The translations under genes were made by a program, and so were the position numbers. Below the pieces are notes generated by a model. It worked only from the letters and a program-made list of their open reading frames with translations, was not told where the DNA came from and searched no databases. A DNA stretch of 64,000 nt from Escherichia coli O157:H7 (lineage in GTDB: Bacteria > Pseudomonadota > Gammaproteobacteria > Enterobacterales > Enterobacteriaceae), in assembly GCF_013167455.1 (NCBI RefSeq), contig NZ_CP038328.1. One strand, given 5' to 3'. Positions 56,827 to 59,453 of this stretch are shown here, in pieces. Numbering within the stretch: position 1 is the first letter of the stretch; each line of letters opens with the position of its first letter.

Positions 56827-56853
56827 CCCCCTCTCTCCGAGGGGGCTTTTTTT
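56827..56853 (+). terminator. Rho-independent terminator after yehA (CCCCCTC-tctcc-GAGGGGG then T7)
   Basis: Seen in sequence. Confidence 0.6.
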
Positions 56854-57190
56854 AGCGATGATAAAAAATCTCACCGTCGTAGGCTTTAATGATTTTACCG
56901 TCGGTGTCGCTGATCAACACGTACGCGCCACCCATATAGGTCCAGTGCGTCCCGGCATCCGGCGCGGGCAGGTTACGCAACTGCCACTGCTTAATGTTGT
57001 ACTCATCGGTACGGTACATCTCTGGTACGGTGTCCCCTGGTTTGTAATGCTTAAAGTCAGCAATGAAACTGCTTAACTCATACTTAGAAATTCCCGAGGT
57101 ATTGGTCGAACCCGCGGTGGCTGGTGCGGCCCAGGCGGCACTGGTAACCAGCAAAAGCGCACCCAGCAACATCTTATTTTTAATGGTCAT
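56852..57190 (-). CDS. rcnB: Periplasmic nickel/cobalt homeostasis protein RcnB (YohN)
   Basis: 112 aa from MTIKNKMLLGALLLVTSAAWA; synteny with rcnA. Confidence 0.85.
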   Translation of the reverse strand: MTIKNKMLLGALLLVTSAAWAAPATAGSTNTSGISKYELSSFIADFKHYKPGDTVPEMYRTDEYNIKQWQLRNLPAPDAGTHWTYMGGAYVLISDTDGKIIKAYDGEIFYHR

Positions 57191-57407: not shown

Positions 57408-58259
<852 letters not shown>

Positions 58260-58296
58260 GATAATAATTCTTAGTATTAATTCGGCAATCTGATTC

Positions 58297-58351
58297 TACT
58301 CCCCCCCAGTACCTGATACTACCCCCCAGTACCTGATACTACCCCCCAGTA
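58297..58351. promoter_or_regulatory. Three tandem RcnR operator-type sites (TACT-C6/7-AGTA on the plus strand, i.e. TACT-G6-N-AGTA on the rcnA strand) at 20-bp spacing in the rcnA-rcnR intergenic region
   Basis: Sites at 58297-58311, 58317-58331 and 58337-58351; the last two are exact copies of a 20-bp unit. Confidence 0.7.
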
Positions 58352-58399
58352 GATTAATAGTGCTATGATTTTTCATGTTCTTGTTAACCAGGTGTTGCC

Positions 58400-58672
58400 A
58401 TGTCTCATACAATCCGTGATAAACAGAAACTGAAAGCGCGTGCCAGTAAGATTCAGGGCCAGGTCGTGGCGCTCAAGAAAATGCTCGACGAGCCGCACGA
58501 ATGCGCTGCAGTTTTACAACAGATTGCTGCTATCCGTGGCGCGGTAAACGGTCTGATGCGGGAAGTGATTAAAGGTCATCTAACGGAACATATCGTTCAC
58601 CAGGGGGATGAGCTAAAACGTGAAGAAGATCTGGATGTTGTTCTGAAGGTGCTGGATTCTTATATCAAATGA
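58400..58672 (+). CDS. rcnR: Nickel/cobalt-responsive repressor RcnR (CsoR/RcnR family)
   Basis: 90-aa helical protein; synteny divergent from rcnA. Confidence 0.9.
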
Positions 58673-58781: not shown

Positions 58782-59096
58782 TTAATTTTCGAAAAATTGC
58801 TTCACAGCCCAGCCACCATGACCACCTGGAGTTATGAATGAAACAAAACCTTTGTCATCTACGCTCTGGATTTCTACCGTCATTGATTCATCTAACACGC
58901 GACATTTATTGGATGTAATGAGACTCAGCATAGCCTGTTGGTCATTGTCCTGGATGTAACTGATCATCTCGTAAAAGTCAGTTAACTTTTTACAGTTAAA
59001 TGTACCTTCTTTAAGTGTTGCGCTGTCTCCGTGACTTAGTGCGAATGCATTTGGCATCATTGCCACAAAGATGACGGTAACGAGTAGTTTTTTCAT
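58782..59096 (-). CDS. Hypothetical secreted protein (104 aa, signal peptide, two Cys) in an AT-rich islet
   Basis: ORF with N-terminal signal peptide MKKLLVTVIFVAMMPNAFA; low-GC context. Confidence 0.5.
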   Translation of the reverse strand: MKKLLVTVIFVAMMPNAFALSHGDSATLKEGTFNCKKLTDFYEMISYIQDNDQQAMLSLITSNKCRVLDESMTVEIQSVDDKGFVSFITPGGHGGWAVKQFFEN

Positions 59097-59105
59097 TTTA
59101 GCCTC

Positions 59106-59453
59106 TTATAATTCAGAACATTCACTGATGTTGTAAGTGCCTTTTCTACCATCATCGTTTACGAGATGTAGCACGAAGATGATGGGATTGGCATCAATGA
59201 AAGATACAGAGACGTTCCCGCTTTCGGTGCTATACATCTTTGCAATCTGTTTTTCACCAATATATGAGAGATCCCAACTCACTCCGTTCAAGCTAAAATG
59301 CATCTGTTTGCCGTCAATATCGATGGAGGATTGTGCCGTAACGGTTTTCCCATTGCTGCCAATTTGACCCTGCTGAAGAGCATCACATTTATAGGAGCTT
59401 GCATAAGTAGATAGAGGTAGTAGCAGAAGTGCAGCAAAAATTTTACTCTTCAT
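59106..59453 (-). CDS. Hypothetical secreted protein (115 aa, signal peptide, two Cys) in an AT-rich islet
   Basis: ORF with signal peptide MKSKIFAALLLLPLSTYA; adjacent and co-oriented with the 104-aa ORF. Confidence 0.5.
   Translation of the reverse strand: MKSKIFAALLLLPLSTYASSYKCDALQQGQIGSNGKTVTAQSSIDIDGKQMHFSLNGVSWDLSYIGEKQIAKMYSTESGNVSVSFIDANPIIFVLHLVNDDGRKGTYNISECSEL

What the first reader, a model, noticed from the sequence alone, without database searches (positions are those of the whole stretch)
58297..58351. Three tandem RcnR operator-type sites in the rcnA-rcnR intergenic region
TACT-C6/7-AGTA occurs three times at exact 20-bp spacing, the last two as an exact 20-bp direct repeat. 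Two TACT-G6-N-AGTA sites are what I recall being described for K-12, so this looks like a duplicated operator, which could change repression strength or cooperativity of the nickel/cobalt efflux switch.
Basis: partly seen in the sequence, partly recalled or inferred. Interest (0 to 1): 0.4.

Follow-up and report, generated by a model that had tools for sequence, protein, structure and literature searches.

The report
Duplicated nickel/cobalt repressor binding site
This E. coli O157:H7 chromosome has a rare, recent 20-base tandem duplication that gives the nickel/cobalt efflux switch three repressor-binding sites instead of the usual two; it is real, but probably a minor and unstable variant of a well-known control region.

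Summary
TACT-N7-AGTA occurs three times (58297-58311, 58317-58331, 58337-58351) at exact 20-bp spacing, between divergent rcnA (57408-58259, -) and rcnR (58400-58672, +).

K-12 and EDL933 have two sites. The window is the two-site allele plus one exact 20-bp unit. The window is otherwise identical to O157:H7 EDL933 over 30.5 kb, apart from one SNP.

Among 5,363 complete E. coli genomes with this region:
- 5 have three sites: four with the same 20-bp duplication and one with a different 23-bp duplication.
- Each three-site allele sits on its own haplotype, and its nearest relatives have two sites.
- 9 records carry the reciprocal one-site deletion.

The duplication endpoints match mispairing between two CCCCCCAGTA repeats 20 bp apart.

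The two-site operator is almost invariant in 77 species. Eighteen of them have a native, non-identical third site on the rcnR side.

Mapped K-12 start sites show that the rcnR promoter and the main rcnA promoter keep their K-12 sequence for 50 and 46 nt upstream. The minor rcnA promoter is moved 20 nt upstream or loses its -35 context.

Verdict: a real, recurrent, short-lived copy-number variant of a known operator. Its functional effect is untested and probably small.

The parts
57408..58259 (-). rcnA, the Ni/Co efflux gene (283 aa here), whose promoter is controlled by the operator array
   Evidence: ORF. Annotated rcnA at the identical EDL933 position (L009 23909-24760).
58286..58298 (-). 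Main rcnA promoter P1: -10 hexamer TAGAAT (58298 down to 58293, overlapping the TA of site 1) and inferred start site at 58286 (27-nt leader)
   Evidence: K-12 start site with 25 reads and a 27-nt leader in Kim et al. 2012 Table S1. Mapped to the window, it is identical to K-12 for 46 nt upstream. ATTC precedes site 1 in 39 of 75 species.
58297..58311 (.). Site 1, TACT-C7-AGTA, the rcnA-proximal RcnR operator (same as K-12)
58317..58331 (.). Site 2, TACT-A-C6-AGTA, the middle operator. One of the two identical copies produced by the duplication.
58337..58351 (.). Site 3, TACT-A-C6-AGTA, the rcnR-proximal operator. It keeps the native downstream context of K-12 site 2.
58302..58351 (.). The repeat tract: 2.5 exact copies of the 20-bp unit CCCCCCAGTACCTGATACTA. 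K-12 has 1.5 copies. The net insertion is 20 bp.
   Evidence: Alignment with K-12 and EDL933.
58307..58341 (-). Two copies of the minor rcnA promoter P2: -10 TAGTAT at 58321-58316 and at 58341-58336, with predicted start sites at 58307 and 58327. Only the upstream copy (start 58327, 68-nt leader) keeps the full K-12 upstream context.
   Evidence: K-12 start site with 12 reads and a 48-nt leader. Context identity is 50 nt for the 58327 copy and 25 nt for the 58307 copy. Which copy fires is an inference.
58361..58377 (+). rcnR promoter: extended -10 TGcTATGAT (58361-58369) and inferred start site at 58377 (23-nt leader). The last site covers its -35 and spacer region.
   Evidence: K-12 start site with 11 reads and a 23-nt leader. 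The 50 nt upstream are identical to K-12. TGnTAnnnT lies 9 nt after site 2 in 40 of 75 species.
58400..58672 (+). rcnR, the Ni(II)/Co(II)-responsive repressor (90 aa), which regulates itself from the same operator array
   Evidence: ORF. Annotated as WP_000019944.1 in EDL933.
56852..57190 (-). rcnB, the accessory gene downstream of rcnA (regulatory output of the switch)
   Evidence: EDL933 annotation L009 23353-23691, which maps to window +33499.

Best explanation
The three sites are the known two-site RcnR operator of the rcnA-rcnR intergenic region with its 20-bp unit copied once more. The ancestral allele already has CCCCCCAGTA twice, 20 bp apart. Replication slippage or unequal exchange between these repeats adds one unit (three sites) or removes one (one site). 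In this O157:H7 chromosome the event is recent and private to the strain. The new site is a perfect copy of the rcnR-proximal site and stays in phase at 20 bp, so it is expected to bind a third apo-RcnR tetramer (inferred). The rcnR promoter keeps its K-12 sequence for 50 nt upstream of the start site and the main rcnA promoter P1 for 46 nt, so each keeps its own proximal operator. They are simply moved 20 bp apart. The minor rcnA promoter P2 is moved 20 nt further from rcnA, so its transcripts must cross two operators instead of one. The expected result is unchanged or slightly tighter repression in low Ni/Co, with normal metal induction (inferred). Population data suggest the variant is neutral to mildly disfavoured and is lost quickly.
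For: Structure:
- Three exact motif matches against 0.21 expected by chance; exact repeat of 2.5 units.
- K-12 and EDL933 have two sites in 120 bp; the window has 140 bp.
- Window 33500-64000 differs from EDL933 CP008957 by one SNP plus this 20-bp insertion. All top O157:H7 hits are exactly 20 bp shorter.

Slippage origin:
- The junction is exactly what mispairing of the two CCCCCCAGTA repeats would give.
- The reciprocal one-site allele is present in 9 records.
- The same duplication is found on unrelated haplotypes (16-72 SNP/kb apart), and in each case the nearest neighbours are 20 bp shorter.
- WW2 has a different 23-bp duplication bounded by CTGAT repeats.

Real rather than artefact:
- N47 and N39 share the allele.
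- The one-site strain 97-3250 shows the same allele in two separate assemblies.

Operator identity:
- The literature describes two TACT-G6-N-AGTA sites with one tetramer per site.

Promoters preserved:
- K-12 start sites mapped onto the window.

Constraint on two sites:
- 77 species carry an almost invariant C7 / A-C6 pair.
- 3-site alleles are 5 of 5,363 genomes and 0 of 66 E. coli-type metagenome contigs.

A third in-phase site is tolerated:
- 18 of 77 species have a native third site.
Against: - No binding or expression data exist for any three-site allele. Occupancy of the middle site and any effect on repression are inferences.
- If RcnR binds the sites independently, the extra site may do nothing.
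- Moving the divergent promoters 20 bp apart could raise expression by relieving interference between them, rather than lower it.
- The source genome of the window could not be identified and is not in the complete-genome set. An assembly error in this particular record is therefore not formally excluded.
- The promoter assignments rest on K-12 start-site data carried over by sequence identity. They were not measured in O157:H7.
Confidence: 0.72

Rival explanations
1. Sequencing or assembly artefact: the source strain really has two sites, and the third copy was introduced during assembly of this record.
For: No other O157:H7-type genome (at least 298) has the duplication. The resequenced EDL933 differs from the window by only one SNP over 30.5 kb yet lacks it. 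The source record is not in the current complete-genome set. Homopolymer-length differences at this locus in other assemblies look partly like sequencing noise.
Against: A 2-to-3 copy change in a 20-bp repeat spans only 55 bp, so single reads cover it easily. The identical change occurs in four other assemblies from different laboratories, including the pair N47 and N39. The reciprocal deletion was reproduced in two assemblies of strain 97-3250. The locus therefore does change copy number.
Confidence: 0.1
2. Adaptive regulatory allele or contingency switch: changes between 1, 2 and 3 copies of the operator unit are selected to retune the Ni/Co efflux threshold or rcnR autoregulation in particular niches.
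For: Gains (at least 4 events of 20 bp plus one of 23 bp) and losses (9 records) recur at the same unit. O111:H8 strain 8E has the duplication while the similarly named isolate 8B lacks it. Other genera have fixed a third site.
Against: About 99.7% of E. coli genomes keep two sites. The three-site alleles are singletons, or one pair, at the tips of their haplotypes. There is no enrichment by host or source: urine, CSF, STEC and sludge. The core promoters and their proximal operators are unchanged. With only 2-3 repeat units the expected switching rate is low compared with classic contingency loci (inference).
Confidence: 0.08
3. The duplication weakens control: it separates the overlapping divergent promoters by two helical turns, which removes interference between polymerases, or it disturbs RcnR-induced DNA wrapping, so rcnA and/or rcnR expression rises.
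For: In the two-site allele the -35 regions of rcnA P1 and the rcnR promoter abut within site 2. This geometry is derived from the start sites. The duplication moves them 20 bp apart. The two-site spacing is strongly conserved at 20-21 bp in 77 species.
Against: Each promoter still has a consensus operator over its spacer and -35 region. Native three-site arrays exist in 18 species. No expression data are available.
Confidence: 0.1

Closest known systems
E. coli K-12 rcnA-rcnR tandem operator: two type-1 CsoR/RcnR-family sites, TACT-G6-N-AGTA (Iwig & Chivers 2009 J Mol Biol; Blaha et al. 2011 Biochimie; as summarised in PMC7055735, PMC3902906 and PMC7105576)
   Same: Same genes, same motif, same C7 and A-C6 site sequences, same 5-nt spacer CCTGA, and same flanking promoters. 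The 50 nt upstream of the rcnR start site and the 46 nt upstream of the main rcnA start site are identical.
   Different: Three sites instead of two and a 140-bp instead of a 120-bp intergenic region. The A-C6 site is present twice. The minor rcnA promoter P2 is displaced by 20 nt.
Native three-site rcn operators found here in Enterobacter, Lelliottia, some Klebsiella, and Kosakonia (L021, L028, L043, L046, L049-L051, L055, L057-L059, L061, L062, L069, L070, L077, L082, L041)
   Same: A third TACT/AGTA-type site in helical phase with the conserved pair, between rcnA and rcnR.
   Different: The native third site is not a copy. Its tract is inverted (TACTC[A/C]GGGGGAGTA) or its half-sites are degenerate (AACT-C7-AGTT). 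It lies at 21-bp phase between site 2 and the rcnR -10, which sits 26-27 nt after site 2 instead of 9. It is fixed in those species rather than a rare allele.
One-site E. coli alleles (strains 90-3040, 97-3250, 2013C-3492, 00_3230, 10_253, YPE10, MS1657, VTB96929v)
   Same: The same 20-bp unit changes in copy number, and the breakpoints lie in the same register.
   Different: They are the reciprocal product, a deletion to a single TACT-C7-AGTA in a 100-bp intergenic region.
Other CsoR/RcnR-family operators (FrmR frmRA operator; CsoR type-2 sites)
   Same: G/C-tract pseudopalindromes with AT-rich inverted-repeat ends, placed over promoter elements and bound by tetramers.
   Different: Type-2 sites have interrupted tracts and bind two tetramers per site. 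They have different effectors. No tandem array created by a recent duplication is described for them in the papers read.

Membership tests
RcnR type-1 operator (E. coli rcnA-rcnR) | Sequence TACT-G6-N-AGTA (on this strand, TACT-N-C6-AGTA) | tested here: met
   All three sites match exactly. They are the only three matches in 64 kb, against 0.21 expected.
RcnR type-1 operator (E. coli rcnA-rcnR) | Located in the intergenic region between divergent rcnA and rcnR | tested here: met
   ORFs. RefSeq annotation of the identical EDL933 segment.
RcnR type-1 operator (E. coli rcnA-rcnR) | Sites overlap the promoter elements of rcnA and rcnR | tested here: met
   K-12 start sites mapped by sequence identity. 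The rcnA -10 abuts site 1, and the last site covers the rcnR -35 and spacer. Not measured in this strain.
RcnR type-1 operator (E. coli rcnA-rcnR) | Two sites per intergenic region (tandem pair) | tested here: not met
   There are three sites here. This is the point of difference from the described operator.
RcnR type-1 operator (E. coli rcnA-rcnR) | One apo-RcnR tetramer bound per site, released by Ni(II)/Co(II) | not testable with these tools
   Needs gel shift, calorimetry or footprinting. The stoichiometry for K-12 is taken from the literature.
Tandem duplication by slipped-strand mispairing or unequal exchange | The ancestral allele has short direct repeats at the spacing of the duplicated unit | tested here: met
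   CCCCCCAGTA occurs twice, 20 bp apart, in K-12 and EDL933. The window repeat is exact over 58302-58351.
Tandem duplication by slipped-strand mispairing or unequal exchange | The reciprocal deletion product exists | tested here: met
   Nine records have a single site and a 100-bp intergenic region.
Tandem duplication by slipped-strand mispairing or unequal exchange | Independent recurrence on unrelated backgrounds | tested here: met
   The window (O157:H7), EC26, N47/N39 and O111:H8 8E lie on haplotypes 16-72 SNP/kb apart. Each has nearest neighbours that are 20 bp shorter.
Phase-variable contingency locus (promoter repeat tract) | Alternative repeat numbers common in the population, or high-frequency reversible switching | tested here: not met
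   About 99.7% of 5,363 genomes have two units, 5 have three and 9 have one. The switching rate itself was not measurable.
Phase-variable contingency locus (promoter repeat tract) | Copy number changes expression of the adjacent gene | not testable with these tools
   Needs isogenic reporter fusions.
Native three-site rcn operators (Enterobacter/Klebsiella/Kosakonia type) | A diverged third site at 21-bp phase between site 2 and the rcnR -10 | tested here: not met
   The window's extra site is an exact copy at 20-bp phase, and the rcnR -10 stays 9 nt after the last site.

The most novel reading that the evidence does not exclude
The rcnA-rcnR operator is a small copy-number locus (1, 2 or 3 units, plus a length-variable C-tract in site 1) that E. 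coli lineages use as a reversible dial for the Ni/Co efflux set-point. On this reading the three-site O157:H7 allele is a selected, tighter-repressing state rather than a passing slippage product.
Probability: 0.08. Interest if true: 0.6.

Novelty: new variant of a known kind. Interest (0 to 1): 0.3.

Why it matters
RcnR is the founding Ni/Co sensor of the CsoR/RcnR family. No RcnR-DNA structure was reported in the papers read here. How the two operator sites work together, through cooperativity and DNA wrapping, is known only from K-12 in vitro work.

This analysis finds a ready-made natural series of one-, two- and three-site alleles with otherwise identical promoters, plus diverged native three-site arrays in other genera. 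These could be used directly to test whether site number sets repression strength.

For the O157:H7 strain itself the consequence is probably small. The finding does not point to a new mechanism.

Tried and rejected
- The simple sigma-70 scan gave two hits that place start sites at or inside the coding regions. I rejected them in favour of the experimentally mapped K-12 start sites.
- Scans for three same-orientation sites found nothing in 100,044 species genomes or in the metagenome collection. The two-site control scans worked, with 77 and 66 hits. Native third sites were found only after relaxing the motif in a script.
- Iwig & Chivers 2009 could not be retrieved. Its content is cited second-hand from PMC7055735, PMC3902906 and PMC7105576, or marked as my own knowledge.
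- Searches for any report of a duplication in this intergenic region found nothing relevant.
- I tried to identify the source genome. Sakai is in the collection, so it is not the source. The withdrawn EDL933 record NC_002655.2 is not held. The source remains unknown.
- I considered that the third site might create a new ORF or RNA element. I rejected this because the insertion lies upstream of both main start sites and only repeats operator sequence.
- PMC3046157, PMC11672702, PMC5709419 and PMC4528141 gave no information on rcn promoter positions.

Full report
**1. The observation**

The window reads ...ctgattc TACTCCCCCCCAGTA cctga TACTACCCCCCAGTA cctga TACTACCCCCCAGTA gattaatag.... A search for TACT-N7-AGTA finds exactly three matches in the 64 kb window, at 58297-58311, 58317-58331 and 58337-58351. 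Dinucleotide-preserving shuffles give 0.21 expected, and none of 100 shuffles reaches three. Tandem Repeats Finder reports a 20-bp period with 2.8 copies and 97% matches. The strictly exact repeat is 58302-58331 = 58322-58351. The array lies in the 140-bp gap between rcnA (57408-58259, minus strand) and rcnR (58400-58672, plus strand). Both genes are annotated as such in the identical EDL933 segment.

**2. Comparison with the reference**

K-12 MG1655 has TACTCCCCCCCAGTA-cctga-TACTACCCCCCAGTA in a 120-bp intergenic region. The window is the same sequence with one more 20-bp unit. Reviews and primary papers that cite Iwig & Chivers 2009 and Blaha et al. 2011 state the following:
- Apo-RcnR recognises TACT-G6-N-AGTA.
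- Two such sites lie in this intergenic region.
- One tetramer binds per type-1 site.

**3. The chromosome carrying it**

Window 33500-64000 aligns to O157:H7 EDL933 (CP008957). There is one mismatch (51692, C in the window against T) and one 20-base gap, which is this duplication. A 12-kb query around the locus matches at least 298 genomes at 99% or better. The best are O157:H7 strains at 99.8% identity, each exactly 20 bp shorter. The allele is therefore private to the source strain within a very uniform clone. The source record itself is not in the complete-genome collection, and I could not identify it.

**4. Frequency in E. coli**

Of 5,363 complete genomes with this region, five have a long allele:
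- EC26, N47, N39 and O111:H8 8E carry the same 20-bp duplication. 8E also has C6 in site 1.
- WW2 has a different 23-bp duplication, this time of site 1, bounded by CTGAT repeats.

BLAST ranking by coverage times identity places any three-site allele above all two-site alleles, so this count is complete for the collection.

The four backgrounds that carry the 20-bp duplication differ by 16-72 SNP/kb in the flanks. Only N47 and N39 are near-identical to each other. For EC26, for N47/N39 and for 8E, the closest other genomes are identical apart from being 20 bp shorter. For 8E these include the similarly named isolate 8B. So the 20-bp duplication arose at least four times independently (window, EC26, N47/N39, 8E), and each time it sits at a tip of the tree.

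**5. The reciprocal product**

A synthetic one-site query found nine records with a 100-bp intergenic region holding only TACTCCCCCCCAGTA. The strains are 90-3040, 97-3250 (two separate assemblies), 2013C-3492, 00_3230, 10_253, YPE10, MS1657 and VTB96929v. The three I retrieved (90-3040, YPE10, MS1657) have different RcnA protein alleles.

Gain and loss of the same unit in the same register is what replication slippage or unequal exchange between the two CCCCCCAGTA repeats of the ancestral allele would produce. That N47 and N39 share the gain, and that both 97-3250 assemblies show the loss, argues that copy-number change at this locus is real biology and not assembly noise.

**6. Conservation across species**

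An exact scan of one genome per species (100,044 species) for three same-orientation sites found none. The two-site control found 77 species of Enterobacterales, Vibrio, Shewanella and Chromobacterium. In these:
- The C7 / A-C6 asymmetry is almost invariant.
- The spacer is 5 nt in 61 species and 6 nt in 16.

Metagenome contigs gave 0 three-site hits against 66 E. coli-type two-site hits.

With a relaxed motif, 18 of the 77 species turn out to have a native third site on the rcnR side at 21-bp phase:
- TACTC[A/C]GGGGGAGTA in 13 species (Enterobacter, Lelliottia, three Klebsiella species).
- AACTCCCCCCCAGTT in 5 species (three Kosakonia genomes, one Enterobacteriaceae metagenome-assembled genome and one genome labelled Enterobacter sp.).

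In the loci checked, rcnA and rcnR flank the array as in E. coli. A third in-phase site is therefore tolerated, and fixed, in some genera. There, however, it is a diverged element and not a fresh copy.

**7. Promoters**

Genome-wide start-site data for K-12 (Kim et al. 2012, Table S1) give three start sites:
- An rcnR start with a 23-nt leader, preceded by the extended -10 TGcTATGAT.
- A main rcnA start (25 reads, 27-nt leader), preceded by TAGAAT, which abuts site 1.
- A minor rcnA start (12 reads, 48-nt leader), whose -10, TAGTAT, is formed by the AGTA of site 2.

Mapped onto the window:
- The rcnR start is at 58377, and all 50 upstream nucleotides are identical to K-12.
- The main rcnA start is at 58286, with 46 identical upstream nucleotides.
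- The minor promoter sequence now occurs twice. The copy with a start at 58327 keeps the full K-12 context (50 nt). The copy at the K-12-equivalent distance (58307) keeps only 25 nt.

The TGnTAnnnT element lies 9 nt after site 2 in 40 of 75 species, and 26-27 nt after it in the 21 species of the three-site type. This supports the rcnR -10 assignment.

**8. Likely mechanism and effect**

*Shown:*
- The extra unit is an exact, in-phase copy of a consensus operator.
- Both main core promoters, with their proximal operators, are unchanged.
- The two divergent promoters are 20 bp further apart.
- The minor rcnA promoter is either shifted 20 nt upstream or stripped of its -35 context.

*Inferred:*
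- A third apo-RcnR tetramer binds the middle site.
- Repression of the two main promoters is unchanged if binding is independent. It is somewhat tighter if neighbouring tetramers or RcnR-induced DNA wrapping cooperate. Wrapping over about 50 bp of flanking DNA is my recollection of Iwig & Chivers 2009, which I could not retrieve.
- Transcripts from the shifted minor promoter must pass two occupied operators.
- Induction by Ni/Co should remain intact, because rcnR is unaltered (the same protein, WP_000019944.1).

The strong conservation of two sites, together with the rarity and tip position of the one- and three-site alleles, suggests that departures from two are neutral to mildly deleterious and are removed or revert.

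**9. Rivals**

- *Assembly artefact in this record.* This cannot be excluded without reads. It is unlikely, given how short the repeat is and how often the same change recurs elsewhere.
- *Adaptive or contingency switching.* The recurrence and the 8E/8B pair point this way. The 99.7% dominance of two sites and the absence of any persistent three-site clade count against it.
- *Derepression.* This could come from relieved promoter interference or from disturbed wrapping. It is possible and untested.

**10. Novelty and score**

The operator, its regulator and its logic are well known. New here are:
- A rare natural three-site allele in O157:H7.
- Evidence that it recurs by slippage.
- The reciprocal one-site alleles.
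- The diverged native third sites in other genera.

I found no report of any of these in the searchable literature. This is a new variant of a known kind. It is of modest interest, mainly as a natural allelic series for testing how RcnR sites cooperate.

Noticed in passing
L159 (90-3040), L160 (YPE10), L161 (MS1657); equivalent to deleting window 58312-58351: Nine complete E. coli records carry the reciprocal one-site allele: a single TACTCCCCCCCAGTA in a 100-bp rcnA-rcnR intergenic region. The three retrieved (90-3040, YPE10, MS1657) have different RcnA protein alleles. A single operator would then serve both divergent promoters.
   Followed up: partly
window 58301-58307 (C-tract of site 1); L007, L008, L162, L163, L004: The C-tract of the rcnA-proximal site varies in length between assemblies: C5 (GB2005, which also has C5 in site 2), C6 (O157:H7 SS17, EC4115, O111 8E), C7 (most genomes), C8 (many, including several O121 strains), C9 (about 20 genomes, many from poultry) and C11 (21EVA, where rcnR is also annotated as frameshifted). 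Some of these are probably homopolymer sequencing errors. C8 in a coherent O121 group looks real. Length changes would alter the half-site spacing of site 1.
   Followed up: partly
L021, L028, L043, L046, L049, L051, L055, L057, L058, L069, L070, L077, L082 (inverted tract); L041, L050, L059, L061, L062 (AACT-C7-AGTT): Eighteen of 77 species representatives have a native third RcnR-type site at 21-bp phase between site 2 and the rcnR -10, and a correspondingly longer distance to the rcnR start codon (62-98 nt against 47-50 nt). I do not know whether this has been described.
   Followed up: partly
L006 / L158 (strain WW2), equivalent to window 58290-58316: WW2 has an independent 23-bp tandem duplication (TTCTACTCCCCCCCAGTACCTGA) that doubles site 1 instead of site 2. 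This gives three sites with 23-bp then 20-bp spacing, so the extra site is out of phase. In the same strain an integrase-bearing island follows the TPP riboswitch where thiM normally lies.
   Followed up: no
window 57692-57898 (inside rcnA): The His/Asp-rich loop of RcnA is a coding repeat that varies in length. RcnA is 283 aa here and in EDL933, and 274 aa in K-12. Other strains have rcnA genes of 810, 831, 846 and 858 nt (annotations; ORF).
   Followed up: no
window 58782-59096, 59106-59453 and on to about 60900: In this O157:H7 segment about 1.8 kb lies between rcnR and the thiM TPP riboswitch. It holds two small secreted-looking ORFs (annotated in EDL933 as an outer membrane protein and a hypothetical protein) and an HTH-like fragment. 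In K-12, EC26 and the others the riboswitch follows rcnR within about 90 bp.
   Followed up: no
window 51692: This is the only base substitution between window 33500-64000 and the resequenced EDL933 chromosome (C in the window, T in CP008957). It lies in a T-rich stretch.
   Followed up: no
window 58377: The base that corresponds to the mapped K-12 rcnR transcription start (A) is G in the window. EDL933 is identical to the window at this position, and SY3626 also has G there. The effect on start-site choice is unknown.
   Followed up: no
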